From positions 1-63,357 of IMG/VR virus record IMGVR_UViG_3300011116_000174: DNA of 63,357 bases; one strand, 5' to 3'. This document shows, in pieces, positions 5,281 to 58,223 of this stretch. The notes below the pieces were generated by a model. The model was not told where the DNA came from. It did not search any database and saw only the letters and a program-made list of their open reading frames with translations. The position numbers and the translations under genes are program-made. How positions within the stretch are numbered: position 1 is the stretch's first letter; every line of letters starts with the position of its first letter. Source of the stretch: a virus. Taxonomy: Duplodnaviria; Caudoviricetes.

Positions 5281-5463
5281 TTGGGTGTAATTGGGTATCT
5301 TTGTGGGTGCGTGATGTAACGTGAAAGAACTTTATGGAATGAAGCGGGACGACGTGCAACCTGAACGCAACCTACTCGCACCGACCCTCTCTCCCGCGCC
5401 CTCTCCCCAACTCTCCCGCCAACCAGCCCCACCAACCGAGATGACACCAGTTCCCAAAGGGCG

Positions 5464-7930: not shown

Positions 7931-9416
7931 AGACAAGCTGCCTCCAGAGATCAGAGCTAAGCTGGGTGCTTTGTTAGAGGAGCGCGACGAGCTTGAGACC
8001 ACCACACAAGCCCAAAAAGATTTCATGACCTACGTAAATTACGTATGGCCTAGCTTTATCCACGGTAAACATCATGTAAAAATGGCGAAAGCCTTTGAAA
8101 GGGTCGCAAATGGAGAAATTAAACGTCTTATTATTAACATGCCTCCTCGTCATACTAAGTCTGAATTTGCTTCTTACCTGCTTCCTGCGTGGTTCTTGGG
8201 ACGCTTTCCTGGAAAGAAAATTATTCAGACATCTCATACAGCTGAGCTCGCGGTTGGCTTTGGACGTAAAGTCAGAAACCTTGTCGATAGTGACGTCTAT
8301 AAAGACATATTTCCAGACGTTGCGCTACAGGCGGACTCTAAAGCTGCTGGTCGATGGGCAACTAACAAGGGCGGAGAGTATTTTGCTATCGGTGTTGGAG
8401 GCGCTGTTACGGGTAAAGGTGCGGATTTGCTCATTATTGACGACCCTCACTCGGAACAAGAAGCAACCATAGCCGAAACGAACCCCGAAGTCTACGATAA
8501 GACCTACGAATGGTACACATCTGGTCCTCGTCAGCGTCTACAACCGGGCGGGGCTATCGTAATCGTGATGACAAGGTGGTCAAAGAAGGACTTAACCGGT
8601 CAAGTTGTCAAAGCAGCAGCCCAAAGAAGCGGAGAAGACTGGGAAGTTATTGAATTTCCTGCACTTTTGCCGTCTGGGAACCCACTTTGGCCTCAGTTTT
8701 GGTCAAAATTAGAGCTTGAAGCCCTAAAATCTGAACTTCCTAACTCGAAATGGATGGCTCAGTACCAACAACAGCCTACTTCTGACGTAAACGCCATCAT
8801 TAAACGTGAATGGTGGCAGATTTGGGAGGATGATGACCCACCACACTGCGAGTTTTTGATACAAAGCTGGGATACGGCCTTCTTAAAGACACAAAGAAGC
8901 GACTTTTCTGCCTGTACTACGTGGGGAGTTTTCTATAAACCCGACGATACAGGCCGAGATCAGGCAAATATTATCTTGTTGAACGCGTTCAAGGAGCGTA
9001 TGGAGTTCCCAGAACTAAAAGAACGTGCCAGAGAACAGTATGACGAGTGGGAACCAGACGCACTAATTGTCGAAGCCAAGGCTGCGGGTAGTCCGTTGAT
9101 ATTTGAGTTGCGAGCCATGGGTATACCCGTGCAAGAGTTTACGCCTAGTAAGGGTAATGATAAGATAGCAAGACTGAATGCAGTAGCAGATATATTTGCA
9201 AGTGGTAGAGTGTGGGTACCTAACACACATTGGGCGGAAGAACTTGTAGAAGAGGTAGCAAGCTTCCCTTCTGGTGAACATGACGACTTAGTAGACTCTA
9301 TGACTCAGGCGTTATTACGGTACAGAAAAGGCGGCTTCTTACGTCTGCCATCAGACGAAGAAGATGAAGTTAGAGAATTTAAATCCAGACGGCATGCTGG
9401 GTATTACAACGTATAG
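7890..9416 (+). CDS. terL: Terminase large subunit
   Basis: NMPPRHTKS Walker A, LLIIDDP Walker B, SWDTA and HDDLVDS nuclease motifs. Confidence 0.95.
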   Translation: MLSQKKLELLQQHKDKLPPEIRAKLGALLEERDELETTTQAQKDFMTYVNYVWPSFIHGKHHVKMAKAFERVANGEIKRLIINMPPRHTKSEFASYLLPAWFLGRFPGKKIIQTSHTAELAVGFGRKVRNLVDSDVYKDIFPDVALQADSKAAGRWATNKGGEYFAIGVGGAVTGKGADLLIIDDPHSEQEATIAETNPEVYDKTYEWYTSGPRQRLQPGGAIVIVMTRWSKKDLTGQVVKAAAQRSGEDWEVIEFPALLPSGNPLWPQFWSKLELEALKSELPNSKWMAQYQQQPTSDVNAIIKREWWQIWEDDDPPHCEFLIQSWDTAFLKTQRSDFSACTTWGVFYKPDDTGRDQANIILLNAFKERMEFPELKERAREQYDEWEPDALIVEAKAAGSPLIFELRAMGIPVQEFTPSKGNDKIARLNAVADIFASGRVWVPNTHWAEELVEEVASFPSGEHDDLVDSMTQALLRYRKGGFLRLPSDEEDEVREFKSRRHAGYYNV

Positions 9417-14584: not shown

Positions 14585-15499
14585 ATGGCTATTTCACGCG
14601 CACAACTACTGAAAGAGCTGCTCCCAGGCTTGAACGCTTTGTTCGGTCTTGAGTATGCTCGATATGGTGAAGAACACAAAGAGATCTATGAAACTGAGAC
14701 CTCTGAGCGTTCCTTCGAAGAAGAAACCAAATTGTCTGGATTCTCTGCTGCACCAGTCAAAAACGAAGGCTCTGCCATCGCTTATGACAATGCACAAGAG
14801 GCATTTACAGCACGCTACAACCATGAGACCATCGCTCTCGGCTTCTCCCTCACGGAAGAGGCAATCGAGGACAACTTGTATGACAGCCTCTCGGCTCGTT
14901 ATACCAAGGCTTTGGCTCGTGCAATGGCTTATACCAAGCAGGTTAAAGCCGCTGCCGTGTTGAACAACGGTTTCACCAACTCTGCCCAATATTACGGTGG
15001 CGACGGTGTACCTTTGTTTGCAACTAACCATCCTTTGGTTTCTGGTGGTACTAACAGCAACACTCAGTCTACCGCCGCTGATTTGAACGAAACTTCCTTG
15101 GAAGCTGCCGTTATTCAAATCGCTGCTTGGACAGACGAGCGTGGCCTGTTGATCGCCGCTAAACCCAAGAAGTTGATTGTTCCTCCATCACTACAGTTCG
15201 TGGCTACTCGTTTGCTCGAGACACAACTCCGTGTTGGTACGACCGACAACGACATCAACGCTTTGGTAAACAATGGTTCGATCCCAGAAGGTTATGCAAT
15301 TAACCACTTCTTGACCGATCCAAATGCTTACTTCCTCACCACTGACGTTCCAAATGGTATGAAGCATTTCGTTCGTACTCCTTTGAGCAACTCAATGGAC
15401 GGAGACTTTGACACAGGCAACGTACGTTATAAGTCACGCGAGCGTTATAGCTTTGGCTGGTCTGATCCCCTCGGTATGTGGGGAAGCCAAGGAGCATAA
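14585..15499 (+). CDS. Major capsid protein
   Basis: MAISRAQLLKELLPGLNALFGLEY...GGDGVPLF...KLIVPP...RERYSFGWSDP; strong RBS; followed by a terminator. Confidence 0.9.
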   Translation: MAISRAQLLKELLPGLNALFGLEYARYGEEHKEIYETETSERSFEEETKLSGFSAAPVKNEGSAIAYDNAQEAFTARYNHETIALGFSLTEEAIEDNLYDSLSARYTKALARAMAYTKQVKAAAVLNNGFTNSAQYYGGDGVPLFATNHPLVSGGTNSNTQSTAADLNETSLEAAVIQIAAWTDERGLLIAAKPKKLIVPPSLQFVATRLLETQLRVGTTDNDINALVNNGSIPEGYAINHFLTDPNAYFLTTDVPNGMKHFVRTPLSNSMDGDFDTGNVRYKSRERYSFGWSDPLGMWGSQGA

Positions 15500-24584: not shown

Positions 24585-27071
24585 ATGTCTGATCGCTACA
24601 AAGGCGCAATACTTTCGCCAACTGCTCCTACTGTCACACCCCAGTCGGCTGGCGGTATTTACACGTCTAGCCAACAGCTACAGTATCAGGGACAGGGAGT
24701 TTGGCCCACCGCTTTTAATAATCCTATAAACAATTCGTTACGCTTTCGGGCTAGTGCCAGTGCTTTTTTAAACAGGACTCCTGCTAGTGCTGGTAATCGT
24801 AGAACTTGGACTTATTCTGTATGGGTTAAAAGAGGAGCCTTAGGCGGGAACATAACATTGCTTGATGCGGGCAGACCTAATAACCCTTGGACAGCTTTTT
24901 ATTTTTCAGATGGTGACGGGGTTGCTGGGCTTAATACTTTAGCTTTTGCTACCACCGCTGGTACTCAGCCTGGAACACATACCAATGCTACATTTAGAGA
25001 TGTTTCTGCCTGGTATCATTTTGTTCTTGCTGTAGATACCACTCAAGCCACAGCAGCAGATAGAGTAAAAATTTGGGTAAATAATGTTGCTCAAACTTTC
25101 TCATATACAAACTATCCATCACAAAATTACGATACTTACGTAAACAGCACAACTTCCCATAGTATCGGTGCTTTATCCAATGGTGGCGCATCAAACCATT
25201 TTGATGGCTACATGACCGAAATAAACCTTATTGACGGGGCAGCCCTAACCCCCTCTTCGTTCGGCACAACCGATGCCTATGGTATCTGGCAACCTATCCC
25301 ATACACAGGTGCGTATGGTACGAATGGATTTTATTTACCATTTACAGACAACTCCGCCCTCACGACTAGCTCAAATGTTGGCTTAGGTAAAGACTTCTCT
25401 GGTAATGGAAACTACTGGACAACCAATGGTATAAGCATTACCGCTGGCTCCACATACGACAGTATGAAGGATGTGCCGACCAACACGAACTCGAATACGG
25501 CTAATTATTGTGTGATGAATCCATTAAATCTTCCTAAAGGTGGAACACTATCAAATGGAAATCTTTTATGGACAGCCCCATCTGCTGAAGGTCAAGCTGT
25601 TGGAACAATGTATGCTTCTAGCGGTAAGTTTTATTGGGAGATGGTATTAAATACTGCTGGTGCTGGATGTGCTTTTGGTATTGCAAGCATTACTACAGAT
25701 ATTAACAATATTAATTTAACTGCTGGTTCTTATGTTTATTACACAAATGGTAATAAATACAATGGTGGTTCTGGCTCTGCTTATGGTGCAACATTTACTA
25801 ATGGTGATATTATTGGTGTTGCATTAGACCTTGATGCTGGAACACTTGTTTTTTATAAAAACAATACAAGTCAAGGGACTGCATTTACTGGTTTGTCAGG
25901 AACTTTTACTGCCTTAATTTATGACGGAACAAGTGCAAGCACACCTACATATACAGCAAACTTCGGTCAACGCCCATTTAGCTACACACCCCCAACAGGT
26001 TTTTATCCGTTAAACACATATAACCTCCCAACGCCTACGATATTGGAAGGCGGGGAGTATATGAATGTTGTTACTTGGACTGGGACTGGAACAAGCTCAG
26101 GTCGCTCCATTACTGGTGTTGGGTTTCAGCCTGATTTTGTTTGGGGTAAGCCAAGAAGTCTTGCCTATACCCATAGCTTATCTGATGCAGTAAGAGGGGC
26201 TAATAAAAGATTAAATAGTGGGTCAACATCCGCAGAAGATACTAACTTCCAATACGGCTACACCTCCTCTTTTGATACCGATGGGTTTACTACAACTTCT
26301 GGTTCATCAAGTAATGAAAACTGGAACACTACTAACGAAACATTCGTAGCATGGAACTGGAAAGCGTCTAACGCTGCTGGAGTATCCAACACCCAAGGCA
26401 CAATAACCTCAACCGTCTCCGCAAACACAACCGCTGGATTTAGTATTGTTACTTATACAGGTAATGGTTCAAATTCAACTATCGGTCATGGTCTTGGTGT
26501 TGCTCCGTCATTCATTATTGCTAAAGCAAGAAACTCAGCACAAAGGTGGACTGTTTACACAGGCGCATTAGGTAATGCTTACTATGGTTATTTAAATGAA
26601 ACCTTTGCTTTTGACACAGCTAATGGAAGTTTAAGATGGAATACTGCACCTACAAGCTCTGTATTTGGTGTCGGAACTTCTGTTGATGTAAATAACAATA
26701 CAACCACTTATGTAGCCTACTGCTTTGCCCAAGTCGCTGGTTACTCTGCCTTTGGGTCTTACACGGGTAACGGGTCAAGCGATGGTGTGTTTGTGTACCT
26801 TGGATTTAGGGCAAGATACTTGATGATTAAATGCTCTAGTAGCACAGGTGGTTGGGTATTGCTAGATACTGCTAGAGACCCATATAACGATGTAGATAAT
26901 TATTTATATGCAAATTCATCTGCGGCTGATGCTGGTTCTTCAAACGTTTTGGACATTAATGCTAACGGCTTTAAAATAAGAAATTCGTGGACCGACATTA
27001 ATGGAAGCGGGACAACATACATCTACGCAGCTTTCGCAGAAAACCCCTTCAAGATTGCTAGGGCAAGATAA
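24585..27071 (+). CDS. Receptor-binding fibre 1 (LamG/ConA + SPRY-like domains)
   Basis: WTYSVWVKRG, WYHFVLAVDTT, GKFYWE, IGVALDLD, GFQPDFVW. Confidence 0.8.
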   Translation: MSDRYKGAILSPTAPTVTPQSAGGIYTSSQQLQYQGQGVWPTAFNNPINNSLRFRASASAFLNRTPASAGNRRTWTYSVWVKRGALGGNITLLDAGRPNNPWTAFYFSDGDGVAGLNTLAFATTAGTQPGTHTNATFRDVSAWYHFVLAVDTTQATAADRVKIWVNNVAQTFSYTNYPSQNYDTYVNSTTSHSIGALSNGGASNHFDGYMTEINLIDGAALTPSSFGTTDAYGIWQPIPYTGAYGTNGFYLPFTDNSALTTSSNVGLGKDFSGNGNYWTTNGISITAGSTYDSMKDVPTNTNSNTANYCVMNPLNLPKGGTLSNGNLLWTAPSAEGQAVGTMYASSGKFYWEMVLNTAGAGCAFGIASITTDINNINLTAGSYVYYTNGNKYNGGSGSAYGATFTNGDIIGVALDLDAGTLVFYKNNTSQGTAFTGLSGTFTALIYDGTSASTPTYTANFGQRPFSYTPPTGFYPLNTYNLPTPTILEGGEYMNVVTWTGTGTSSGRSITGVGFQPDFVWGKPRSLAYTHSLSDAVRGANKRLNSGSTSAEDTNFQYGYTSSFDTDGFTTTSGSSSNENWNTTNETFVAWNWKASNAAGVSNTQGTITSTVSANTTAGFSIVTYTGNGSNSTIGHGLGVAPSFIIAKARNSAQRWTVYTGALGNAYYGYLNETFAFDTANGSLRWNTAPTSSVFGVGTSVDVNNNTTTYVAYCFAQVAGYSAFGSYTGNGSSDGVFVYLGFRARYLMIKCSSSTGGWVLLDTARDPYNDVDNYLYANSSAADAGSSNVLDINANGFKIRNSWTDINGSGTTYIYAAFAENPFKIARAR

Positions 27072-29608
27072 TGAGTAAACGATATCCAGGCGGAATACTC
27101 CGCAAGACTCCTCCGACACCAAGCCAGACATCTGCTCAAGGTATTTGGGATATGGCGTCCGTCACTCAGGCGGTTAAGGAGAATACTTGGCCCATCGCTG
27201 GCGTCCCTGATCCAATTAGTAAGTCCTTGCGGTTTAGAGCAAGCGCTTCTGCTTATTTAGGCAGAACTCCAACTAGTGTTGGGAATCGTAGAACTTGGAC
27301 TTTTTCTACTTGGATTAAATTAGGGGAAATTGCGGCAAGCAACGGAACTATTTTTGCGGCTGGAACTGCAAGTGGTGAAACAACCAGATTTTATTTACGC
27401 TATACAGGAAGTCAGTTTCAAACTGGATATGGAAGCCAAAACTTAGATACTACGTCAGCAGTTTATCGAGACCCTTCTGCTTGGTATCATTTAGTATTGG
27501 CTGTAGATACAACACAAGCAACCGCTGCAAACCGTTTAAAAATATATGTAAATGGGGTTCAACAAGCGGTTTCAACTAGTGTTAACTATACTCAAAACGT
27601 TGATACTGCCGTTAATAATTCGGTAACCCACTCTATCGCTAGAGATCATATAATTCCTGGCGGGTATTTTGATGGGTATTTAACCGAAACATACTTAATT
27701 GACGGTCAAGCCCTAACCCCATCATCCTTTGGCTCTACTAACGACCAGACAGGCGTATGGCAACCCATCGCTTACACAGGTACATACGGAACCAACGGCT
27801 TTTACTTGCCGTTCTCCAACACCGCCTCGACCACCACGCTAGGCTACGACTTCTCAGGTAACTCCAACAACTGGACAACCAACAATATCTCATTGACCAG
27901 CGGTACTACCTATGACTCGATGGTAGACGTGCCAACCCAGTGGATACCCTACAACACAGCGGGCGACACAGGAGCGTTGTTTAGGGGGAATTACTGTGTG
28001 TTGAATCCTTTAGCATCTCGGTCTGTTGGAACAATGCAAAATGGTAATTTAACTTGGAAAAAGTCTGATGCGGCTGGAGATAATTATTGCTGTGCATCAA
28101 GTATTTCTATTCCGTCTTCAGGAAAATGGTATTGGGAAGTAACTATTACTGATGGTGCTTCGGGTGCAAATTGTATTGGAATTATCCCTAGCACATCTAC
28201 AACACAGCAAACAGCCAATACTATTCCTGGTGATTTTGGCATAACAACAAATGCTTTTGGATATTATTCTGACGGCACTAAACGAAATAGTGGGTCATCT
28301 ACTGCTTATGGCAATTCATTTACAACTGGCGATATTATTGGTGTTGCAGTAGATACCACCAACGGCAAAATATGGTGGTCTAAGAATGGCACATGGCAAG
28401 CAAGTGGTGACCCTGCGGCTGGCACAAATGCCGCCTTTACTACATTGTCAGGAAGTTATTATGCCGCTAGTTCTGTTCGCTATAATGGCAATCAACATGA
28501 TTACAATTTTGGACAACGGTCATTTAGCTACACCTTACCATCAGGCTTTGTAACACTAAACACACTTAACTTATCTACTCCTACTATTGGTGCTACTGCA
28601 TCTACTCAGGCTAATGATTACTTTAACGCAACGCTTTATACTGGCAATAACTCAACACAAAGCGTAACAGGAGTCGGATTCCAGCCAGATTTTGTATGGA
28701 TTAAAGAAAGAGATGCAGTAGAAGATCACTTTTTATTTGATTCTGTAAGAGGTGCAACTAATTTTCTTAGATCAAACACAACCGATGCTCAGGGAACATT
28801 AGCAAACTATTTAACAGCATTTAACTCTGATGGTTTTTCTCTTGGCAATGGTGGCGGTGTTAATGGTGCAAGTGATTTGTATGTTTCATGGAACTGGAGA
28901 GCATCTAACGCCACAGCCGTAACCAACACAGCAGGCTCTATTACATCTACAGTAAGTGCTAATACGACTGCTGGATTTAGTATTGTTACTTATACAGGTA
29001 ATGGAACAAATGGTGCAACAGTAGGGCATGGTTTAGGTGTTTCACCTAGTATGATTATTGGAAAAATAAGAAGCACTACTGGTGATTGGTATGTGTGGCA
29101 AACGGCTATGGGCGATAATTTTATGAAACTAAACACAACTGCAGCCCAACTCGCATCTACCGCAAACGGAGTATATAACACAGCAAGTTTTAGTTCTACT
29201 GTGTTTGCACTTGGTTCTAGTATTGCCATGAATGCAAGCGGTGGAACTTTTGTAGCCTACTGCTTTGCCCAAGTCGCTGGCTATTCCGCATTTGGTAGCT
29301 ATACAGGCAATGGCTCTAGTGATGGTCCTTTTATATTTACTGGGTTTAGGCCCGCATTCGTGTTAACGAAGTGTTCAAGCACTACAGGCAACTGGATGAT
29401 TACAGATGATGCAAGAAACCCATCTAACCTTGCTGGTGAAATATTAATGCCAAACAATGCAGATACAGAATACAGCCAAGATGGTATTGATATGCTTTCT
29501 AACGGGTTTAAACTAAGAGCTTCCACAAGTAACAGAAACTCAAATGGTGCTACTTACATCTACATGGCTTTTGCCGAATCACCCTTTAAATACGCACTCG
29601 CCCGCTAA
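27071..29608 (+). CDS. Receptor-binding fibre 2 (paralog of fibre 1)
   Basis: Same motif order as 24585..27071. Confidence 0.8.
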   Translation: MSKRYPGGILRKTPPTPSQTSAQGIWDMASVTQAVKENTWPIAGVPDPISKSLRFRASASAYLGRTPTSVGNRRTWTFSTWIKLGEIAASNGTIFAAGTASGETTRFYLRYTGSQFQTGYGSQNLDTTSAVYRDPSAWYHLVLAVDTTQATAANRLKIYVNGVQQAVSTSVNYTQNVDTAVNNSVTHSIARDHIIPGGYFDGYLTETYLIDGQALTPSSFGSTNDQTGVWQPIAYTGTYGTNGFYLPFSNTASTTTLGYDFSGNSNNWTTNNISLTSGTTYDSMVDVPTQWIPYNTAGDTGALFRGNYCVLNPLASRSVGTMQNGNLTWKKSDAAGDNYCCASSISIPSSGKWYWEVTITDGASGANCIGIIPSTSTTQQTANTIPGDFGITTNAFGYYSDGTKRNSGSSTAYGNSFTTGDIIGVAVDTTNGKIWWSKNGTWQASGDPAAGTNAAFTTLSGSYYAASSVRYNGNQHDYNFGQRSFSYTLPSGFVTLNTLNLSTPTIGATASTQANDYFNATLYTGNNSTQSVTGVGFQPDFVWIKERDAVEDHFLFDSVRGATNFLRSNTTDAQGTLANYLTAFNSDGFSLGNGGGVNGASDLYVSWNWRASNATAVTNTAGSITSTVSANTTAGFSIVTYTGNGTNGATVGHGLGVSPSMIIGKIRSTTGDWYVWQTAMGDNFMKLNTTAAQLASTANGVYNTASFSSTVFALGSSIAMNASGGTFVAYCFAQVAGYSAFGSYTGNGSSDGPFIFTGFRPAFVLTKCSSTTGNWMITDDARNPSNLAGEILMPNNADTEYSQDGIDMLSNGFKLRASTSNRNSNGATYIYMAFAESPFKYALAR

Positions 29609-29632: not shown

Positions 29633-30244
29633 ATGAGTAACTTTGCAGTAGTACAAAACGGACAAGTAGTACAGATTGTCCCCTTAGATGTACCGTTCAC
29701 CGTAGGAACTAAGACCTATTCAGGTTCGTTCTTGCGTTCTTCAACCCCTGCCGAAAAGCTACAAGCTGGCGTTTGGGAAATCATTCATGGCGCACGCCCT
29801 GACGATAAGTATTACTGGGTCTCTGGTCCTACCTATCGTGTGAATGAAACCAACAGCACCGTAGAAGCGACTTATTCTGGCACGGCTAAATTGCTTGACG
29901 ACCGTGAAGAGTCTGACGAGAATGGCAACCCACTATACGTTCAAGAGTACGACCCAACCGCTAACAACGGTCAAGGCGGCATGGTTAACACCACCGAGCG
30001 TCTAGTGACCAAAGGTCTGAAGTCTAACGAGATTGCCGCAGTTAAATCTGCCGCTGGTTCGCTCTTGGCATCGACTGACTGGATGATTATTCGCAAGGTT
30101 GAGCGTAATGTGGATGTCCCTGCAAGCGTAACCGCCTATCGTGCAGCCGTAGTTGCTGAAGCCGACCGTTTAGAAGCAGCGATTGCTGCTGTTACTGACG
30201 TTGATGCCTTAGCTGCGATCAAGGCAAACTGGCCCAAAGCATGA
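29633..30244 (+). CDS. Putative tail fibre assembly protein
   Basis: LLASTDW.IIR, YRAAV, C-terminal WP. Confidence 0.7.
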   Translation: MSNFAVVQNGQVVQIVPLDVPFTVGTKTYSGSFLRSSTPAEKLQAGVWEIIHGARPDDKYYWVSGPTYRVNETNSTVEATYSGTAKLLDDREESDENGNPLYVQEYDPTANNGQGGMVNTTERLVTKGLKSNEIAAVKSAAGSLLASTDWMIIRKVERNVDVPASVTAYRAAVVAEADRLEAAIAAVTDVDALAAIKANWPKA

Positions 30245-30450
30245 AAGCCGTATACGAAGCTCAACTAGTGGATGGGCAAGTACAGCCTAAGCACGAGGTT
30301 GAGATCGTGTGCGCAGCGTGTGGATATGACTTAGATGAGGCGGAGTTGACCGCAGACACTTGCTCCGACTGTGGGACTCCCCTTAACCTAAAACAGCATA
30401 TCTCCATTCATGCTACGTCCGTTCCTGCCGCTGGCGGAGAGGTGTTTTAA
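30241..30450 (+). CDS. Small Zn-ribbon protein
   Basis: CAACG...CSDCG. Confidence 0.7.
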   Translation: MKAVYEAQLVDGQVQPKHEVEIVCAACGYDLDEAELTADTCSDCGTPLNLKQHISIHATSVPAAGGEVF

Positions 30451-35166: not shown

Positions 35167-36621
35167 ATGAATTACAATTCCAAGGGCGGGCAGCCGCACG
35201 GACTAAAAGCTATTGCTCAAGAACTCACCCGTTACGGACGTAACGGAGATACTATTCTTGCGCACATTAACCCAGACGAAGCGGCTTTACTTAAAAAGCT
35301 AGGGGGTTCTGGAAGCATCAATCCGGTTACGGGTTTACCCGAATATTTTTGGAAATCGGTTACTAGGGCAATTGCTGCACCATTTAGGGCAGTAAATGAA
35401 GTAGTTAAGGCCGTTCCTGTTATTGGCCCCGCTATTGACAAGGGGCTGGTAAGTTTAGATAAAGCCGTTGGTAGCGCTATTCCGGGGGGCTGGAATACTC
35501 TTGCCCAGACCGCTTTGGCATTTACTCCTCTTGGTCTACCGGCTAAAGTAGGTCTTGCTGCCCTAGGTGGTAGCGGCGCTCTTGGACCAAAAGGCAAGTT
35601 TAATTTTCAAAAAGCACTATTAAGTGGCGCTTTAGCTTATGGTGCCAATCAACTAGCCGAAGGGCTTCAGGCTGCTGGCGGTCCTGGAGCTGACGCTTCT
35701 GTAACAGATGTTGCTTCTAAATTAGGTGTAGAAGGTGTTTCTACTGCTCCCACCGATGCAGCGGCAATGTTAGCTAAACAGGCTGAAGGTCTTGGTCCAG
35801 AAGGTTTACGAAATATTGCTTCTAGTGCAAGTTACGCGGGAGCGCCTACTAATGTAGACGTGTTTAGTGGTTTAGCTGGTACACAAGGTGCTATTCCTGT
35901 TACTGCCTCCCAACAAGCAGCCCCCGGATTTTTTGACAAAATTGCCTCATCAGACTTTGTTACTCAAACAGGTGAAAATTTATCCGCTGCTGGACAAGGT
36001 ATCAAAAACCTTACTGGATTTGGTAGCGGCGCAAAAGCCGCAGCGTCTGCGTTTACTGGTCCAGTAACCGCTGGCGGCATGACTGCTTTAGGTATTGGTG
36101 CTATGGGCCTCATGCAGCTTAATGAGCAAGAGAAGATGTTAAACGAGCAGCTTGCGTCCGGTACTATTGCTCAATCTGAATACGATGCAAACATGGCACG
36201 GATTAATGAAGCAAGAGCTCGCGCTGAACAAGCAGTTCGCGAGAACCCATATCAGTTTGCTGCTGGTGGCTCTATTGACGATGAGCCCGGTATGGATAGC
36301 GCACGCGGCATAGACCCAGGCAATTTACAAAAAGGTCTTTTTGGTTTAGGTTACGCTACGGGCGGGCAACCAAGATTTTTGTCGGGTGGCGGTGATGGAA
36401 TGAGCGATTCTATCCAAGCTACTATTAACGACAAACAACCAGCCAGACTTGCCGACGGCGAATTTGTTATTCCTGCCGATGTAGTATCTAATTTAGGAAA
36501 TGGCTCCTCTAAAGCAGGAGCTAAGCGTTTATATGGAATGATGGATCGGGTGCGTAAAGCCCGCACCGGAACTACCAAACAGGCTAAAGCGATTAACCCC
36601 GCTAAAGTAATGCCAGCTTAA
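35167..36621 (+). CDS. Putative internal/ejection protein
   Basis: GRNGDTILAHI..SINPVTGLPEY; GDGMSDSI; LADGEFV. Confidence 0.7.
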   Translation: MNYNSKGGQPHGLKAIAQELTRYGRNGDTILAHINPDEAALLKKLGGSGSINPVTGLPEYFWKSVTRAIAAPFRAVNEVVKAVPVIGPAIDKGLVSLDKAVGSAIPGGWNTLAQTALAFTPLGLPAKVGLAALGGSGALGPKGKFNFQKALLSGALAYGANQLAEGLQAAGGPGADASVTDVASKLGVEGVSTAPTDAAAMLAKQAEGLGPEGLRNIASSASYAGAPTNVDVFSGLAGTQGAIPVTASQQAAPGFFDKIASSDFVTQTGENLSAAGQGIKNLTGFGSGAKAAASAFTGPVTAGGMTALGIGAMGLMQLNEQEKMLNEQLASGTIAQSEYDANMARINEARARAEQAVRENPYQFAAGGSIDDEPGMDSARGIDPGNLQKGLFGLGYATGGQPRFLSGGGDGMSDSIQATINDKQPARLADGEFVIPADVVSNLGNGSSKAGAKRLYGMMDRVRKARTGTTKQAKAINPAKVMPA

Positions 36622-52409: not shown

Positions 52410-52554
52410 TTTTCGCTAATACCGTTAATAGTCTAAGTTCTGCTAGTGTATTTAGTGCATGCTCCTCTGCTTCTTTGTATTCCTTATCTCTCATCGCCTC
52501 TTCGTATAATTTTAAATTTCGTTTTGCCTCTAGTAAAAAAGACGAGTATTCCAT
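52390..52554 (-). CDS. Small hypothetical protein (54 aa)
   Basis: Not in ORF track; MEYSSFLLEAKRNL..., TGATG overlap with the pol stop. Confidence 0.6.
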   Translation of the reverse strand: MEYSSFLLEAKRNLKLYEEAMRDKEYKEAEEHALNTLAELRLLTVLAKNAGQEK

Positions 52555-54395
52555 CAACAATCTCCGTAACTATATCCATAACTTGCTTCACAATTTAAAG
52601 GCAAAGTATCCGCCCACGTTGGTCTCCAACGCATACATTCCATCACGTATTGAAGGGCTTCCTCTTTCTCTTCTTCTTTTGCGATACAGGCAACGGCATC
52701 ATGCACCGTTAAAACTACCCTATATCGTTGGCTTATTTTAATCATTTGTTCAGCAATCACACAACGCGCCACTGCTTGACAAATGTTCTCAATTACTTTA
52801 CCGCCGTAAAGCTTTACCATACCGCGTCTTGTCGGGTATTCAAATTGGGTATTACCCTGAGGGTCTGTAACTTTATCAATACCTTCGTAGCGTTGCCATA
52901 ACCCACTGGGTAATAAAAACCCTGCTTTGTATGGGTCAAATCCAACTACATCAGGCACACCCAAAGAGCATGCTTGCTTAGATATTATGGCGTCTAAGCA
53001 TCTACCCGCTTGTTTCCATAGTTCGGGTATCTTTCCGTAAGTCGCCCGATAAATTTGTATAATGTGGCTCGCTTCATCTTCCGGTATATCGACTCCGAAT
53101 GTTTTAAGTTGGGCTTGGAACTTCTTACCGCCCATGCCGTATCCGGCGCCGAGAATCGTCGTTTTACCCACAAACCTCTCTGCCGTAGATATTTCTGAGA
53201 CATCCTTGCTATATATAGCAGATGCCATGATTTTGTATACGTCCTCGCCATTCTCAAATGCCTCCACCAAATCTGTTTGTCCTGCTAACCACGCAACCGT
53301 TCGCGCTTCAATCTGCGACGAGTCTGCATCAATAACCACATACCCTTCGGGGGCGCATATGGCTTTCTTTAATTTGTTTGCGTTTGCCCCGCGACTAGGT
53401 AAGTTTTGTAGATTAATTTTGTCATCACCGCCCCACCGCCCAGTGTGCGCCGCGTAATATTTAATCGGTACAGGTAACTTCCCACGCTTGGCTATATCAA
53501 TAAAGCGTTGTGTGCGCGTCTCTTCAAGCGTAGTCTTGTTGCCCAATCTTGCTTCGACCAAAGCCTGAACGCGAGGATCAGGATGTGATGCCAGTTGCTT
53601 GAACGCTTCGTCGGTCTTAGCAAATGCCCACGCTTCCTTGCCAGTGCGCGCACTGATCTTTGTAGGGGGGTCTACACCCAAAGACTTTAATATATCTGCA
53701 AACTTCTCGTTTGACATCAGCGTATCTTTGTCTGCCACGCACGCTAGTAGTAGGGCTTCCTTTTTGTTTTTAGTATCCTCTAAGTGTTGCTCAAGTAGTG
53801 GTAGGTTTAGTTCCAGTACCGGTTCAATAAACATCTTTAGAGTTGTGTCGATTACCTTGAGTTCTTTCATAGGAAAGCCACCACCAATCCCAGGCAACAT
53901 AAGTATGTTAAACAACGTGTATGTCAAATCCACATCGTTCCTACAATACTCACCATAGGCATCTATCTCTGACTGGGTAAAGTTGTTACGGCGTTTGCCC
54001 ATAGCATTTATCACTTCCGTGCCTTTTTCGCCGATGTTATAACGTTCAGCTAATACTTTAAGACTACCGCCCGCCTCAACACCATGGGTAGCACGAGCCA
54101 TACAAAGTGTATCGAGCCAACCCTTCGGTTTGATACCATAGCGCCAAGATAAAATAGCGCCATCAAACTGAGTGTTGTGCGCTAGGACTAGGCAGTTCTT
54201 CCAGTCATATAGTTTGGCAAAGCGGGACTCGGTCATGTGTTTGTTGTCATACCAAACAGTTTCGCCGTCGTCTTCTTTCACCGCTACACCGATAACCTCA
54301 AACCGATCATCGCGAATGTACTCCTCGGTCGTCAATCGCGACAAAGAATATTCTCTGTCGTAATACGTTTCAAAATCTACCGTTAATATTTTCAT
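52554..54395 (-). CDS. polA: Family A DNA polymerase with 3'-5' exonuclease
   Basis: DFET, AHN..FD, HTGRW, NLQNLP, DSSQIEAR, RFVGK...LG.GYG, TVHD. Confidence 0.92.
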   Translation of the reverse strand: MKILTVDFETYYDREYSLSRLTTEEYIRDDRFEVIGVAVKEDDGETVWYDNKHMTESRFAKLYDWKNCLVLAHNTQFDGAILSWRYGIKPKGWLDTLCMARATHGVEAGGSLKVLAERYNIGEKGTEVINAMGKRRNNFTQSEIDAYGEYCRNDVDLTYTLFNILMLPGIGGGFPMKELKVIDTTLKMFIEPVLELNLPLLEQHLEDTKNKKEALLLACVADKDTLMSNEKFADILKSLGVDPPTKISARTGKEAWAFAKTDEAFKQLASHPDPRVQALVEARLGNKTTLEETRTQRFIDIAKRGKLPVPIKYYAAHTGRWGGDDKINLQNLPSRGANANKLKKAICAPEGYVVIDADSSQIEARTVAWLAGQTDLVEAFENGEDVYKIMASAIYSKDVSEISTAERFVGKTTILGAGYGMGGKKFQAQLKTFGVDIPEDEASHIIQIYRATYGKIPELWKQAGRCLDAIISKQACSLGVPDVVGFDPYKAGFLLPSGLWQRYEGIDKVTDPQGNTQFEYPTRRGMVKLYGGKVIENICQAVARCVIAEQMIKISQRYRVVLTVHDAVACIAKEEEKEEALQYVMECMRWRPTWADTLPLNCEASYGYSYGDC

Positions 54396-54625
54396 TTGTC
54401 TAACATGTCATCAACAAGGCACTGAGACAATACTTGTGCCAATCCAACCCTATGCGACTTGCGCTCCTCTTGTTCGTCAGTCGTGTAAATAAAAAGAGAG
54501 TCATCTTTGTGCATAGCGATTCCAACAAAGCTAACTATCTCACCATTTTCAAATTCTTTCAATAGGGTTTTCAATGATGAATAAACATCTTCTCGTTTTC
54601 TATTAATTGATACTATATTTGCCAT
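54392..54625 (-). CDS. Hypothetical protein (77 aa)
   Basis: MANIVSIN after AAGGAG, immediately downstream of the array. Confidence 0.7.
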   Translation of the reverse strand: MANIVSINRKREDVYSSLKTLLKEFENGEIVSFVGIAMHKDDSLFIYTTDEQEERKSHRVGLAQVLSQCLVDDMLDK

Positions 54626-54638
54626 TTCTTTTCTCCTT

Positions 54639-55297
54639 GATATCCTCACCCGACCACACCTAGACTCGCATCACCGCACCGTTCCATACCTTACCGAAAA
54701 ATCCATACCATGCCTTACATGACCTTCGCCATACAGCGCCTAGCCGAGCCACGAACTCCTTGCCATAACTCACCCCGCCGTATCGTACCGAACCGAGCCA
54801 TGCCCGAGCGCGAACTCCTTGCCTGACTGAATCCCGCCACTCCTAGCTATAACATGCCGAACCTAGAACTCCGTGTCTTACCAAACTTCGCCGTGCCCGA
54901 CCATGCCGAGCCGTACCGCGCTAGAACCACGATACCCAAACCTTGCCGATCCCAACTTCACCGCACCACACCTCGCCCCGCCTAGTGGGAACCGCAATAC
55001 CCTTGCCAAACCGGGCACGAACTGAACTCACCATGCCCAACCCTGAACTCCTCACTACACCGCACCTTACCCAACCATGCCTCTACTAACCATGAATCCC
55101 TTACCTCACCAGTACAAACCTCGCACCGCCCGACCCGACCTAACCGCATCGCGCATCACCAAAAAATCCATACCGAACCTTTCCTCACCCGACCAGACCC
55201 CGCCGTAGCTAGTCAAGAAGCCCAAGCCTTGCCCTGCCGGATCGGGACAGACCGATCCATGCCGGGACGCGCCATACACTACCGGAGCCTGATGCCC
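54639..55297 (-). ncRNA. Array of 11 putative guide RNAs: (GGY-NN)n pentamer tracts separated by 7-nt GGRNWUY linkers
   Basis: 5-nt periodicity NN-RCC on the + strand; 12 linkers; begins 3 nt after the stop codon of the RAMP-like gene. Confidence 0.85.
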
Positions 55298-55300
55298 TAG

Positions 55301-55912
55301 TTATGCTACTTTTTTGAGTGGCATTTTTACCGCTGCGAACTTTTTAACTTCATAGCGACCATGACGTGGTCTCCAATCGCCGATGCCAACGTAAGAACCC
55401 GCGTCTTCAACCCAACGCTTTAACTGCGCTTCGTTTGCTACGTCTGAGTTAATAGATACTTTGAACTTAGCAGTCCAGTCTTTGAAGTGCGGACGAGTGC
55501 GCATAACCTTTGCCATACCAACACGCACCGCAACACAGATACGATGGTCTTCGCTCTCAACCAACTGATCGACAGTCATTGTTCCGCCTTCGTATGTAAA
55601 CGTAGCATCGGTATCTACAAACATACCTGATAATGCCAATTTACCTTCCTTGCTTTTCTTAGCGCCTTCGACAAGCACCGACTCAAGCACACGACTTGGG
55701 ACAATTACTTCGTTCTTTTTGTTTAGGTATAACCCTGCACGATACTCGATGTTTGCCATAGCTTCATAGTCTGTATCGGTTTTCTTGCGCTTGCTACTAA
55801 TTTCTTTCATAGCTTTGCTAAACGGATTAAGCGGGTCTGCCGTTTGTCCGTTGTGCATAATCAATGAATCACCGCTTAATTCAACTTCATATTGTGTGTA
55901 GCCTTTTGGCAT
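55301..55912 (-). CDS. Cas7/RAMP-like RNA-binding protein (putative guide-RNA filament subunit)
   Basis: N-terminal strand + LIMHN; IVPSRVLESVL..GA helix; RTRPHF..W; C-terminal Gly-rich loop AGSYVGIGDWRPRHGRY; GAGGAG RBS. Confidence 0.75.
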   Translation of the reverse strand: MPKGYTQYEVELSGDSLIMHNGQTADPLNPFSKAMKEISSKRKKTDTDYEAMANIEYRAGLYLNKKNEVIVPSRVLESVLVEGAKKSKEGKLALSGMFVDTDATFTYEGGTMTVDQLVESEDHRICVAVRVGMAKVMRTRPHFKDWTAKFKVSINSDVANEAQLKRWVEDAGSYVGIGDWRPRHGRYEVKKFAAVKMPLKKVA

Positions 55913-55934
55913 GTTACTCTCCTCTTTATTTAAA

Positions 55935-56351
55935 TTATGGACGTCGTGATCGTTTGATCTCTTTCGTCCGCACAGTTTTAGGAACTTTTACCTTCCTCTT
56001 TTTTGGCTTGGAAGATTGTTTTGGTTTAATCTCCCTAGTCAAAACCTTTCGCAACGTCTGATCGCCAAGCGCCCGACGTCTACTTCTAATTGATTCCGTA
56101 ATCCCATCATGACAAGACTCGCATAACATAATCACGTCGTTGATAGTTTCCTCACCCCATGTGTCGTAGTGTCGATGATGTAACTCCATAGCGTATTCTT
56201 CGCTTGACCGCCAACATGTTCCGCACTGATACATTTGTTGTAGCGCTTTTAGGTTACGCAACTGAAACCAATGATCGGGATTTGGGTGGGACTTCGCGGG
56301 ACGTAGGACTTTATGTCCGTCGATCTCCCTAACTCTTTTCAATTGAGTCAT
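55935..56351 (-). CDS. HNH endonuclease with basic C-terminal tail
   Basis: CGTC...ELHHRHY..WGEE...LCESCH. Confidence 0.8.
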   Translation of the reverse strand: MTQLKRVREIDGHKVLRPAKSHPNPDHWFQLRNLKALQQMYQCGTCWRSSEEYAMELHHRHYDTWGEETINDVIMLCESCHDGITESIRSRRRALGDQTLRKVLTREIKPKQSSKPKKRKVKVPKTVRTKEIKRSRRP

Positions 56352-56643
56352 ACTTTAGCCTTCCAAATACTGTTGTACTGCCCAAACTTAACTTTTGGGT
56401 ATGTCTTGCTCTTTTAAGTGCTTCATCAAAAGGGTCATCCTCTTCTGCATGTAACAACTCTTTCATAACATCTCTAGTAAATTCGTCCGCCACTAACTTG
56501 CGTGCTTCATCGGTAAGTGGTTTTAGTTCGTTAGGAATGTATTCGTTATATTCAGCCAAAAGCGGAACCCACCTACCGCCCTTCATAAACTCCTCGGGGT
56601 GTGTCTTGATACGCTCGAGCAATAACCGGACGCCCTCGTTCAT
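56329..56643 (-). CDS. Hypothetical protein
   Basis: LLERIKTHPEEF; coupled. Confidence 0.7.
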   Translation of the reverse strand: MNEGVRLLLERIKTHPEEFMKGGRWVPLLAEYNEYIPNELKPLTDEARKLVADEFTRDVMKELLHAEEDDPFDEALKRARHTQKLSLGSTTVFGRLKYDSIEKS

Positions 56644-56918
56644 AAGATTTCCTCAAGGTCTTTTAGTCTTGCGCCCTCGGTTACATACTTGACCCGAGCA
56701 TCGCTATCGCATGGTGTTAGCTTTACCAATTTCTTTTTGACAAGCTTCTTGGTCAGGCGCGAGTGCAAGTTTGCCGGCGATCCCAAGTGCTTACAGTCTT
56801 CCAACACGTTGGTTACTCGCTCGTTCATACCCACACCAAGCAACATTAAATCAATACTATCTATACCGAACTTGGCATGCACCATGTTTAGTGTGTTCCC
56901 TATTTTTTCTACCTTCAT
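56640..56918 (-). CDS. Winged-helix (MarR-like) protein
   Basis: SPANLHSRL.KKLV..KLV...D.RVKYV. Confidence 0.6.
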   Translation of the reverse strand: MKVEKIGNTLNMVHAKFGIDSIDLMLLGVGMNERVTNVLEDCKHLGSPANLHSRLTKKLVKKKLVKLTPCDSDARVKYVTEGARLKDLEEIL

Positions 56919-57145
56919 CTTACTTTCCTATACTTAATTGGTATTGTGCCGTCCGTATGTAATACAACTTTGCCGTCTTGCAACAACTCTTTTAAATACC
57001 TGCCCGCCGTATACTTATGAACGCGTAGATACTTTGCTACTTCGCTTATTGTTTTTGGGTTTCCCTTTAATAGCCGTAGCACTTGCGCGTGTCTTACGCG
57101 CTTCGGCTCTTTTACGCATTTCGATACCCTTCTTCGCGTTTTCAT
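56915..57145 (-). CDS. Winged HTH protein
   Basis: PKTISEVAKYLRVHKYTAGRYLKELLQDGKV. Confidence 0.65.
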   Translation of the reverse strand: MKTRRRVSKCVKEPKRVRHAQVLRLLKGNPKTISEVAKYLRVHKYTAGRYLKELLQDGKVVLHTDGTIPIKYRKVR

Positions 57146-57281
57146 TTTGTTTTAGGTAATCCTTAATAATTGCTATAAATCCCTCTTGCACTAGAAACTG
57201 CAAGCCCTCTTTATCAAAGTCAAGCGTAACAACCCCCGACCCATCTTTGTTTTCTCTAACCATCGTGGCTTCAATTTTCAC
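57015..57281 (-). CDS. Hypothetical protein
   Basis: GTG start after GAGGAG; ENKDGS...LDFD. Confidence 0.6.
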   Translation of the reverse strand: MKIEATMVRENKDGSGVVTLDFDKEGLQFLVQEGFIAIIKDYLKQNENAKKGIEMRKRAEARKTRASATAIKGKPKNNKRSSKVSTRS

Positions 57282-57540
57282 GTTTTCTCCTCTCGATTTC
57301 TCGTTTAACATACCAAACTGCTTTTTCCAAATCCTCAATCGCATCGCCTTTTAAGTCGGCGCGCCATATGTATTTCATCGCGTTGCCCAAACAAAAACTC
57401 ATGTGTTCTGTAATTTGTATACAGTCAATCCCACTGGGGTGCGACGTGTAATGCTTGGGATTATTTACGTTGTCAATAACCGCGTCTTCATAGCCCGGAT
57501 GATATGGTGCTTCTTCAACTTTTTTTTGATATTCATTCAT
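57271..57540 (-). CDS. DUF3310 (SaV-like) protein
   Basis: VNNPKHY...FCLGNAMKYIWRA..K...EDLEKA.WY. Confidence 0.85.
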   Translation of the reverse strand: MNEYQKKVEEAPYHPGYEDAVIDNVNNPKHYTSHPSGIDCIQITEHMSFCLGNAMKYIWRADLKGDAIEDLEKAVWYVKREIERRKREN

Positions 57541-57763
57541 TTGATTTTTGTTCTTTCAACTTTGATTTTAAAACTTTGTTTTCCATAATTAGGTGGTCAA
57601 TTATTTTGAGATGTTCGGCGTGCCGGTCTTCCATTACTTTGACCATTCTTTCAAATTGATGTTGCCAACCCTGCATACTCGAGACTAACTGTTTAGAGTG
57701 ATACCAAACAAAGTCTTTAGTGATGCCCTCTACTGTTACGTTGTCTTTTATTTCATCAATCAT
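57533..57763 (-). CDS. Hypothetical protein
   Basis: Coupled ORF. Confidence 0.65.
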   Translation of the reverse strand: MIDEIKDNVTVEGITKDFVWYHSKQLVSSMQGWQHQFERMVKVMEDRHAEHLKIIDHLIMENKVLKSKLKEQKSNE

Positions 57764-57960
57764 TTAATCCCATGCCTCCTTCTTCTTTGTGCGGTTGCCC
57801 GATTGTTTCTTTGTACTGCCATACCAAGTTCTTTTGTTTCTTCATCGTAAGCCCACACAACATCATGGACTAACCCACAATCACAACAAGCCAATCTATA
57901 CAGTTCACCTAAAGGCACAACAAACCCCTCTCCGTCAGTTCTTTGTATGTATCGGGTCAT
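57760..57960 (-). CDS. Small Cys-motif protein
   Basis: MTRYIQ...CCDCGLVH. Confidence 0.65.
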   Translation of the reverse strand: MTRYIQRTDGEGFVVPLGELYRLACCDCGLVHDVVWAYDEETKELGMAVQRNNRATAQRRRRHGIK

Positions 57961-58223
57961 TCTTGACCTCTTGTTAATGCTTGATGATATCCTTCTAAAA
58001 ACCACGCCCTTGCACATTCTATGTTTGATTGATTACTTGTATCTAATGAATCCCAAACGGCAGTAGCTTCATCGCATATATCACTCCATGACCTATTTTT
58101 ATTGTTTGTTTGTGTGTCTAATTGGTCATAATGTCGCTGAATCATGTGTAAGTCTTTTTCCAACTCCGCTATTCGGTCTGCTTGTAGCTTTACTAACTCA
58201 TTGATTTCGTCATTGTCAGTCAT
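57957..58223 (-). CDS. Hypothetical protein
   Basis: Coupled ORF; QADRIAELEK. Confidence 0.65.
   Translation of the reverse strand: MTDNDEINELVKLQADRIAELEKDLHMIQRHYDQLDTQTNNKNRSWSDICDEATAVWDSLDTSNQSNIECARAWFLEGYHQALTRGQE

What the first reader, a model, noticed from the sequence alone, without database searches (positions are those of the whole stretch)
55101..55290. The skipped base coincides with the codon wobble position at conserved motifs
In G1, G2 and G3 the gap falls on codon position 3 of strongly conserved, partly catalytic residues. Such guides would ignore most synonymous changes, so escape needs an amino-acid change, and one guide could cover a gene family. It also raises an acquisition question: foreign sequence must be rewritten by replacing every third base with GGY, and no reverse transcriptase or Cas1 is visible here.
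Basis: inference. Interest (0 to 1): 0.88.

Follow-up and report, generated by a model that had tools for sequence, protein, structure and literature searches.

The report
Phage VIPR guide array, wobble-skipping
This stretch is part of a phage-encoded VIPR guide-RNA array, a system described in 2026 whose guides skip every third target base, so the idea that the skipped base is the codon wobble position is already in print and could be confirmed here for one guide only, and not for the three that were named.

Summary
The stretch 55101-55290 belongs to a 660-base non-coding array (54637-55300, minus strand) of about 11 units of GGYNN pentamers. It lies directly downstream of a 203-aa protein that is a homolog of the solved SUSP1 Vipr protein. 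This is a VIPR system, described in three 2026 bioRxiv preprints. [quoted passage not shown]

For the three named guides (G1-G3) I found no target. I looked in the phage's own genome, in 3.03 Mb of related phage DNA and in 0.94 Mb around bacterial Vipr homologs. Their codon-phase claim therefore stays unverified.

The last guide of the same array (G11, 54646-54695) does show the effect:
[quoted passage not shown] - The skipped base is always codon position 3, the most variable position.
- The phage's own copy matches only 15 of 20, because of two amino-acid differences.

The genome has no reverse transcriptase or Cas1. How guides arise is still open.

The parts
55935..56351 (-). 138-aa HNH-domain protein, candidate VIPR accessory protein (Vap) of nuclease type, directly upstream of vipr
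   Evidence: Pfam HNH with E 1.2e-5 and 25.8 bits, above the 21.4-bit cut-off. PHROG HNH endonuclease families also match. A homolog lies within 200 nt of vipr in 16 of 16 related loci that hold upstream sequence. A homolog lies within 1.5 kb in 25 of 64 distant bacterial Vipr loci.
55301..55912 (-). vipr gene: 203-aa RAMP-fold protein, homolog of SUSP1 Vipr
   Evidence: BLASTP against SUSP1 Vipr gives 33% identity, E 8e-37. The family profile hits PDB 36pp_D, 'SUSP1 Vipr protein', at E 5.2e-44. The AlphaFold2 model built with the alignment has pLDDT 93. The top Foldseek matches are Cas7-type chains of type III Csm/Cmr and type VII complexes, E about 3e-5.
54637..55300 (-). whole vrRNA array: about 11 guide units of GGYNN pentamers joined by 9-10-nt junctions of the form GGRNTTYNN, with no long structured tails
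   Evidence: There is no Rfam match.
55224..55283 (-). G1: degenerate unit, 8 of 12 pentamers start with GG; holds an 8-bp hairpin; no target found
   Evidence: The unit is shared with L006, L008 and L009.
55170..55214 (-). G2: 9 pentamers, 7 start with GG; no target found
   Evidence: The unit is shared with G003, L003 and G001.
55101..55160 (-). G3: 12 pentamers, 8 start with GG; no target found
   Evidence: The unit is shared with L003.
54705..55091 (-). G4 to G10: seven further guide units (55052-55091, 55003-55042, 54938-54992, 54873-54927, 54819-54863, 54760-54809, 54705-54750); no target above the null
54646..54695 (-). G11: 10 pentamers; the guide whose NN letters match the DNA polymerase gene of related phages under the 1-nt skip rule
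   Evidence: Best match 19 of 20. In 3.03 Mb there are 74 places at 80% or more and 42 at 90% or more under skip 1. Under skips 0, 2 and 3 there are 2-3 places at 80% or more and none at 90%. The unit is unique to this window among 16 arrays.
54309..54338 (-). the phage's own copy of the G11 target site (codons 20-29 of its DNA polymerase), matched at only 15 of 20 NN letters
   Evidence: It differs from the 99%-identical polymerase of G003 by R20K and I27V inside the site.
52554..54395 (-). family-A DNA polymerase gene, the gene family targeted by G11 in relatives
   Evidence: PHROG 17 DNA polymerase, E 5.8e-87. 80 related loci were fetched with it.

Best explanation
The locus is a phage-borne VIPR system (Viral Interference Programmable Repeat). 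The operon on the minus strand reads HNH-type accessory gene, then vipr, then an array of about 11 vrRNA guides.

By homology with the SUSP1 system, Vipr protomers would bind one pentamer each. They would hide the GGY bases and present the two NN bases. The NN bases pair with double-stranded DNA while every third target base is skipped. Binding silences the target gene, and here the HNH partner might cut it. These steps are inferred from the preprints and are not shown for this phage.

Because the period of the target is three, a guide aimed at a coding sequence in the right register reads codon positions 1 and 2 and ignores the wobble base. This is shown for one guide, G11. Its letters fit a conserved block of the replicative DNA polymerase gene of related, mostly VIPR-less phages. 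The phage's own copy falls below the 80% match level through two amino-acid differences.

The targets of G1-G3, the units in the finding, are unknown.
For: Protein.
- The protein is 33% identical to SUSP1 Vipr.
- The five SUSP1 residues that the cryo-EM preprint says contact the two guanines or line the Y3 pocket (H17, R138, D177, W178, R179) align with H20, R140, D179, W180 and R181.
- R140 and R181 are invariant and D179 is nearly invariant in 43 homologs.
- The family profile hits the solved SUSP1 Vipr at E 5.2e-44.
- The model has a Cas7-like RAMP fold.

RNA.
- The 5-nt GG period is far above shuffles.
- The third base is C or T in 755 of 864 GG pentamers from related arrays.
- In 17 homologous guide clusters the variable columns are G1 3.0%, G2 1.5%, Y3 12.1%, N4 8.3% and N5 6.1%.
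- An array lies downstream of vipr in all 16 related IMG/VR loci.
- A same-strand GG-period stretch lies within 1.5 kb of vipr in 60 of 64 bacterial loci.

Targeting by G11.
- G11 matches only under the 1-nt skip rule.
- It matches at 80% or more in 64 of 81 distinct polymerase sites, and at 19 of 20 in 12 of them.
- Thirty permuted guides gave a best match of 16.0 on average and 17 at most.
- At the matching sites, identity to the majority base is 0.89 at codon position 1, 0.99 at position 2 and 0.52 at the skipped position 3.
- The target block is more conserved than its surroundings: 0.86 against 0.67 amino-acid identity.
- The phage's own site matches 15 of 20.
Against: - Only one of about 11 guides has an identified target, so the codon-phase statement for this locus rests on one independent guide-target pair.
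- The 64 matching sites are homologous copies of one site, not 64 events.
- The two self-avoiding amino-acid differences lie in a tract where nucleotide differences cluster: 17 of 44 fall in the first 129 nt of the gene. They may have arrived together with the guide by recombination rather than by selection.
- The units lack the structured 3' tail of the characterised type II vrRNAs.
- Processing at the junctions, RNA binding and silencing have not been shown for this architecture. Per the preprint text, staggered arrays were the one architecture not confirmed by sRNA-seq.
- The SUSP1 residues E71 and M72 of the pyrimidine pocket are not conserved here; they align with R74 and V75.
- Contigs from RNA libraries cover parts of the array only at depth 2-5 and cannot show transcription.
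Confidence: 0.85

Rival explanations
1. G1-G3 are real vrRNAs, but they do not read codons in register. They would target non-coding DNA, host repeats used as decoys, or other phages' vrRNA genes. The third preprint describes such targets for some solo vrRNAs. G1 might instead be a decayed unit. In either case the wobble claim would not apply to the three guides named in the finding.
For: No coding target was found for them in about 4 Mb of own, related and Vipr-neighbouring DNA. G1 has only 8 of 12 GG pentamers and contains a hairpin. The third preprint reports vrRNA-targeting and decoy-targeting guides.
Against: The pooled NN composition of related arrays fits codon positions 1-2 best. Mean log-likelihood is -2.749 in sense and -2.777 in antisense, against -2.796 to -2.908 for the other four registers, but the margin is small. 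Permuted guides already hit register 3 more often than registers 1 and 2. G2 and G3 are kept in other arrays, which argues against decay.
Confidence: 0.25
2. The array is not a set of guides. It would be a periodic protein-binding or structural element: an RNA wrapped around a TRAP-like ring, a CsrA-type sponge, two-tier G-quadruplexes, or a primase or Rho loading zone beside the replication genes. The G11-polymerase match would then be a coincidence.
For: GG recurs every five bases with two or three variable bases between. That resembles TRAP's triplet repeats with 2-3-nt spacers (recalled, not from a call). The array sits in the replication module.
Against: - The adjacent protein is a homolog of the solved Vipr and keeps the guanine-contacting residues.
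- Unit lengths vary from 8 to 12 pentamers, unlike a ring of fixed size.
- By my own calculation, a 19 of 20 match has a chance of about 6e-11 per position, or about 3e-4 over 6 million positions.
- The match is seen only under one skip rule and only in codon register.
Confidence: 0.04
3. VIPR targeting is real, but the wobble alignment is a by-product with no selective meaning. Any guide that must match many diverged copies of a coding target can only survive in the register that avoids the variable third positions. The alignment would then reflect which matches we can detect, not an evolved defence against escape.
For: Matches were found by asking for at least 80% identity across diverged homologs. 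That favours the conserved register. Position 3 identity at the site is only 0.52.
Against: Within a single close relative (G003, polymerase 99% identical) the guide still matches in register at 18 of 20. The preprints report the same register for perfect matches to single targets.
Confidence: 0.1

Closest known systems
Type II VIPR of Escherichia phage SUSP1 (KT454805.2; vipr ALH47069.1, vap1 ALH47068.1)
   Same: The Vipr proteins are homologous at 33% identity and the guanine-binding residues are kept. The guides are GGYNN repeats of 8-12 units on the vipr strand. The 1-nt skip rule holds with the skip at the wobble position. No self match reaches 80%.
   Different: SUSP1 has four separate vrRNAs of about 100 nt with a structured tail containing a pseudoknot, and vap1 lies downstream of vipr. 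This window has 11 tail-less units joined by 9-10-nt junctions, no vap1 homolog, and an HNH gene upstream instead. The known SUSP1 targets are a satellite's recombinase and other VIPR systems. The one target found here is the DNA polymerase of related phages.
'Staggered' vrRNA arrays of VIPR systems (fig. S18 of 10.64898/2026.04.26.720920; I saw the legend only)
   Same: Guides abut each other, so the end of one marks the start of the next. In this window the pentamer register slips by one base at 9-nt junctions, which fits the '1 nt overlapping positions' of the legend.
   Different: I could not see the figure or the supplement, so identity of the architecture is not established. The text says the ribozyme arrays and single-guide systems were confirmed by sRNA-seq, not the staggered ones.
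Nuclease-associated VIPR types (types III-V of the same preprint)
   Same: The accessory gene encodes a predicted nuclease. An HNH domain is named among the Vap examples.
   Different: Types III and V are described as enriched in bacterial defence islands and as acting for the host. This system sits in the replication module of a complete phage genome. I could not assign a type because the type tree and tables are in supplements I could not open.
Class 1 CRISPR-Cas backbone (Cas7/Csm3 filaments on crRNA)
   Same: Both have a RAMP fold, and the top structural matches are Cas7-type chains of Csm/Cmr and type VII complexes. Both use one protomer per RNA repeat and periodically interrupt base pairing (from the preprints).
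   Different: There are no CRISPR repeats, no Cas1 and no other cas genes. In VIPR the RNA period is 5 with 2 of 5 bases paired and the target period is 3. In CRISPR the period is 6 with every sixth base unpaired.

Membership tests
VIPR system | Vipr protein: a RAMP fold (RRM core, glycine-rich loop, thumb) homologous to known Vipr | tested here: met
   33% identity to SUSP1 Vipr, E 8e-37. Profile against PDB 36pp_D 'SUSP1 Vipr protein', E 5.2e-44. Model pLDDT 93. 53 PDB matches at E 0.001 or better, led by Cas7-type chains of Csm/Cmr and type VII complexes.
VIPR system | Residues that hold the two guanines or line the Y3 pocket in SUSP1 (H17, R138, D177, W178, R179) | tested here: met
   They align with H20, R140, D179, W180 and R181. 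H20, R140 and R181 are invariant and D179 nearly invariant in 43 homologs.
VIPR system | Remaining pyrimidine-pocket residues in SUSP1 (E71, M72) | tested here: not met
   They align with R74 and V75. The RNA still has C or T at position 3 in 755 of 864 pentamers, so the pocket may be built differently.
VIPR system | vrRNAs of 9-16 tandem YNNGG repeats next to vipr on the same strand | tested here: met
   Units have 8-12 pentamers. The period is far above shuffles. The array starts at the vipr stop codon.
VIPR system | Conserved structured 3' tail after each repeat tract (type II) | tested here: not met
   Only 9-10-nt junctions separate the units. SUSP1 tails are long hairpin-forming stretches. 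The preprint allows other architectures.
VIPR system | Targets match the NN letters with one skipped base per unit | tested here: met
   Met for G11 only. Under skip 1 there are 74 places at 80% or more and 42 at 90% or more. Under skips 0, 2 and 3 there are 2-3 and 0. For G1-G10 no target was found under any rule.
VIPR system | No self-targeting at 80% or more NN match | tested here: met
   The best own-genome matches are at the level of permuted guides. There are no perfect runs of 6 or more units. The phage's own polymerase site is matched at 75%.
VIPR system | Accessory gene (vap) linked to vipr | tested here: met
   An HNH gene is adjacent in 16 of 16 related loci with upstream sequence. 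A homolog lies within 1.5 kb in 25 of 64 distant loci. That it works with Vipr is inferred.
VIPR system | vrRNAs are expressed, processed and bound by Vipr, and the complex binds DNA and represses | not testable with these tools
   Short contigs of three metatranscriptome libraries from two studies cover parts of the array and of vipr at depth 2-5. The tool states that this does not show transcription.
CRISPR-Cas | CRISPR repeat-spacer array and the adaptation gene cas1 | tested here: not met
   No Cas_Cas1 match in the whole genome. There are no direct repeats of CRISPR type; Tandem Repeats Finder found only two short repeats in 53000-58000.

The most novel reading that the evidence does not exclude
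In this phage lineage VIPR would serve competition between close kin. A singleton guide at the promoter-distal end of the array is aimed at the essential DNA polymerase gene of related, mostly VIPR-less phages, and it covers 64 of 81 polymerase variants. The carrier is spared by two conservative amino-acid changes in its own polymerase. The linked HNH protein would turn silencing into cutting. Arrays would be rebuilt by swapping whole guide cassettes at the short junctions. The first making of a guide would need a process that rewrites a coding sequence into pentamers without a reverse transcriptase or Cas1.
Probability: 0.3. Interest if true: 0.6.

Novelty: new member of a known kind. Interest (0 to 1): 0.35.

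Why it matters
The central idea of the finding is right but already published. It adds no new principle.

The window adds a well-documented natural example outside the two model clades:
- a complete environmental phage genome with a dense, tail-less array of 11 guides;
- an HNH partner gene in place of vap1;
- a guide aimed at the replicative DNA polymerase of its own relatives.

Over about 80 diverged polymerases the guide's read positions are nearly fixed (0.89 and 0.99). The skipped positions are close to free (0.52). That is a clean illustration of why a period-3 gapped code resists synonymous escape.

The pair of own-type and relative-type sites differs by two amino acids. It gives a ready-made test of self versus non-self discrimination.

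It stays unanswered in the text I could read. The mosaic arrays here (64 guide clusters in 16 arrays, 31 of them singletons) are material for studying it.

Tried and rejected
Early ideas, dropped once the Vipr homology and the G11 match were seen: an RNA wrapped around a TRAP-like ring, a CsrA sponge, G-quadruplex beads, a Rho loading site on the C-rich strand, and a primase loading zone. All came from recall, not from calls.

Searches that gave nothing:
- Tandem Repeats Finder.
- Rfam at E up to 1 over 3 kb.
- blastn of 54392-55912 against the phage collection.
- The sigma-70 promoter and terminator scan: 8 weak promoter-like sites and no terminator.

Structure: the single-sequence AlphaFold2 model was useless (pLDDT 36). 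I repeated it with an alignment.

Target hunting that led nowhere:
- The phage's own genome.
- 274 kb, 1.27 Mb and 3.03 Mb of related phage DNA, searched with the window's guides and with all guides of all arrays held. Apart from G11, only hits at the level of permuted guides appeared: 125 places at 16 of 18 against 46 for permuted guides, and the excess is G11.
- 0.94 Mb around bacterial Vipr homologs.
- Degenerate peptides of all guides against 120 Vipr homologs.

G7 against the vipr gene (16-17 of 22 in several loci) looked suggestive. It is within the null and the loci are homologous, so I do not claim it. G2 at window 47612 (14 of 18) is likewise at the null.

The NN composition test favours the wobble register only weakly.

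SUSP1 vap1 and its Medea1 counterpart have no homolog in the window.

RNA-library contigs show presence only; parts of the stretch without cover say nothing.

The GG-rich stretch at window 5368-5440 is irregular and overlaps an ORF. I do not call it a vrRNA.

The supplements of all three preprints were not seen; data S3 and figs S10 and S16-S18 of the first may bear on the type, on the staggered architecture and on whether polymerase targets are already listed.

Full report
What is there. The window is a complete 63,357-base viral record (CheckV 100%). Around the finding all genes run on the minus strand. They are a 138-aa HNH protein (55935-56351), a 203-aa protein of PHROG 4652 (55301-55912), a 660-base stretch without a credible ORF (54637-55300), a small ORF, and a family-A DNA polymerase (52554-54395). 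Read on the minus strand, the non-coding stretch is G-rich, and GG recurs every five bases. Of 116 spacings between successive GG, 45 are exactly 5, 11 are 10 and 4 are 15. GG followed by GG at +5 occurs 58 times. Dinucleotide-preserving shuffles gave a mean of 20.8 and a maximum of 36. Inside 55101-55290 the count is 17 against 6.0 and 12.

A dynamic-programming parse and coordinates give about 11 units of 8-12 pentamers of the form GG, then mostly C or T, then two free bases. The units are joined by 9-10-nt junctions of the form GGRNTTYNN. At the 9-nt junctions the pentamer register slips by one. The finding's coordinates hold three of these units. G1 has 8 of 12 pentamers starting with GG, G2 has 7 of 9 and G3 has 8 of 12.

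What it is. [quoted passage not shown] I read its abstract, Results, Discussion, four Methods sections and figure legends. It describes VIPR systems. These consist of a small RAMP-fold protein, Vipr, and vrRNAs of 9-16 YNNGG repeats whose NN bases pair with DNA while one target base per unit is skipped.

Two further preprints were found. The first is a cryo-EM study (10.64898/2026.04.26.720927), of which I read the abstract and one section. The second is a study of SUSP1 and its satellite (10.64898/2026.10.15.759431), of which I read the abstract, two Results sections and the Discussion.

The window's 203-aa protein is a Vipr. It is 33% identical to SUSP1 Vipr. A profile of 43 homologs hits the solved 'SUSP1 Vipr protein' (36pp_D) at E 5.2e-44. 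The model built with that alignment has pLDDT 93, and its best structural matches are Cas7-type chains of type III Csm/Cmr and type VII complexes. SUSP1 residues H17, R138, D177, W178 and R179 contact the two guanines or, for R179, line the Y3 pocket. They align with H20, R140, D179, W180 and R181. The two pocket residues E71 and M72 are not conserved.

The same gene-plus-array layout is present in all 16 IMG/VR loci found with the protein. A same-strand GG-period stretch lies within 1.5 kb of the homolog in 60 of 64 bacterial and archaeal loci.

How this locus differs from the model systems. SUSP1 has four separate vrRNAs with long structured tails and a vap1 gene downstream of vipr. This window has no tails, only short junctions. 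That fits the legend of the preprint's 'staggered arrays', an architecture the text does not list among those confirmed by sRNA-seq. There is no vap1 homolog. Instead an HNH gene (Pfam HNH) sits directly upstream of vipr in 16 of 16 related loci that hold upstream sequence. A homolog lies within 1.5 kb in 25 of 64 distant loci. That makes it a likely nuclease-type accessory gene rather than a stray homing endonuclease. I could not assign a VIPR type because the supplements are closed.

The claim about the wobble position. The first preprint states that skip bases align overwhelmingly with the third codon position and that this would defeat synonymous escape. The third preprint shows a guide reading six codons of a satellite recombinase active site. 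Second positions are invariant across 119 satellites and wobble positions are the most variable. It reports that nearly 90% of vipr-targeting orphan guides are wobble-aligned.

For this window the claim needs targets, so I searched for them with scripts that read the guides from the window file. For G1, G2 and G3 I found none. I searched the phage's own genome, 3.03 Mb of related phage DNA in 256 sequences (and for all four skip rules), and 0.94 Mb around Vipr homologs in cellular genomes. Every best match lay within the range of permuted guides. The statement that these three guides read conserved, partly catalytic codons is therefore unverified, and I could not find what it was based on.

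One guide does show it. G11 (54646-54695) is the last unit of the array. It matches the 5' part of the DNA polymerase gene of related phages. Under the 1-nt skip rule its best match is 19 of 20 NN letters, with 74 places at 80% or more and 42 at 90% or more in 3.03 Mb. Under skips of 0, 2 or 3 there are 2-3 places at 80% or more and none at 90%. Thirty permuted guides reached 16.0 on average and 17 at most.

I picked the site in each polymerase by protein motif and found 81 distinct contexts. One of them was a false pick with stop codons, and one was the window's own site. Of the 81, 64 match at 80% or more, and 12 of those match at 19 of 20. In all of them the NN letters fall on codon positions 1 and 2 of the coding strand and the skipped base on position 3. 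Identity to the majority base at the 64 sites is 0.89 at position 1, 0.99 at position 2 and 0.52 at position 3, and four different bases occur at five of the ten skipped positions.

The ten codons (20-29) lie in a block that is more conserved than the rest of the first 66 residues (0.86 against 0.67). They start 11 codons after the ExoI glutamate, so they are near the catalytic residues but not on them. These 64 sites are copies of one homologous site. For the question of codon phase they count as one independent pair.

Self versus non-self. The phage's own polymerase site matches only 15 of 20, which is 75% and below the 80% level used in the preprints. The polymerase of G003, whose Vipr is 100% identical and whose array lacks G11, differs from the window's by four amino acids in 613. 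Two of them (R20K, I27V) lie inside the ten-codon site, and G003 matches at 18 of 20. This fits the idea that escape needs an amino-acid change. However, nucleotide differences cluster at this end of the gene (17 of 44 in the first 129 nt). The guide and the diverged site may therefore have arrived together by recombination.

Many of the polymerases that G11 matches thus belong to loci in which no vipr was found.

Evolution of the array.
- Splitting 16 arrays at the junction motif gives 64 guide clusters. 33 are shared by two or more arrays, in conserved order, and 31 are singletons, G11 and G4 among them.
- Public contigs show cassette-sized differences with ends at or near unit junctions: 54869 to 54989 with 54 other letters between, and 55047 to 55107.
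- Within 17 homologous guide clusters the two G columns vary least (3.0% and 1.5%). The third base varies most (12.1%) and the NN columns lie between (8.3% and 6.1%). That is the pattern expected if GG is needed for binding, Y is free between C and T, and NN is held by a target.
- The genome has no RVT_1 or Cas1 match.
- In the first preprint 'acquisition' occurs only in the author contributions. In the third, the only relevant mention is a phrase about 'acquisition of a new vrRNA'. These were searches inside two papers, not of the whole library. How a guide is first written remains open.

Verdict. The feature is real and is a VIPR guide array. Its stated evidence for G1-G3 is not reproducible with what I could search. 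The effect is shown here for one other guide. The locus is a new member of a known kind, with a tail-less array, an HNH partner and a DNA polymerase target, and these make it a useful natural example.

Noticed in passing
window 54646-54695 versus 54309-54338: The guide that targets the polymerase gene of relatives lies only about 300 bases upstream of the phage's own, diverged copy of that site. It is a singleton among 16 arrays.
   Followed up: partly
window 55935-56351: An HNH-domain gene is linked to vipr in 16 of 16 close loci and in 25 of 64 distant bacterial loci. That suggests a nuclease-type accessory protein in a phage-borne VIPR.
   Followed up: partly
window 5368-5440 (minus strand): A short G-rich stretch with partial 5-nt GG spacing follows a terminator-like hairpin with a T run. 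It is irregular and overlaps a 96-aa ORF (5157-5447). It is possibly a decayed or solo unit, possibly nothing.
   Followed up: partly
G001 10192-10304 and 26802-26922; G002 30200-30297 and 36370-36450; G004 8338-8436 and 15010-15090: Related phage contigs hold short GG-period stretches far from their main array. They are candidates for solo vrRNAs of the kind described in the third preprint.
   Followed up: no
L017 537-2165: A distant relative (Vipr 42% identical) has guide units separated by a longer repeated junction with a T run. It has three separate GG-period blocks, one of them after an intervening ORF. This is a different array architecture.
   Followed up: no
window 24585-27071 and 27071-29608: Two adjacent paralogous genes of about 830 aa match the same virion structural and tail fibre PHROGs.
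   Followed up: no
window 54869-54989 and 55047-55107: Contigs from public runs replace or skip whole guide cassettes, with ends at or near unit junctions. Natural populations therefore carry array variants.
   Followed up: partly
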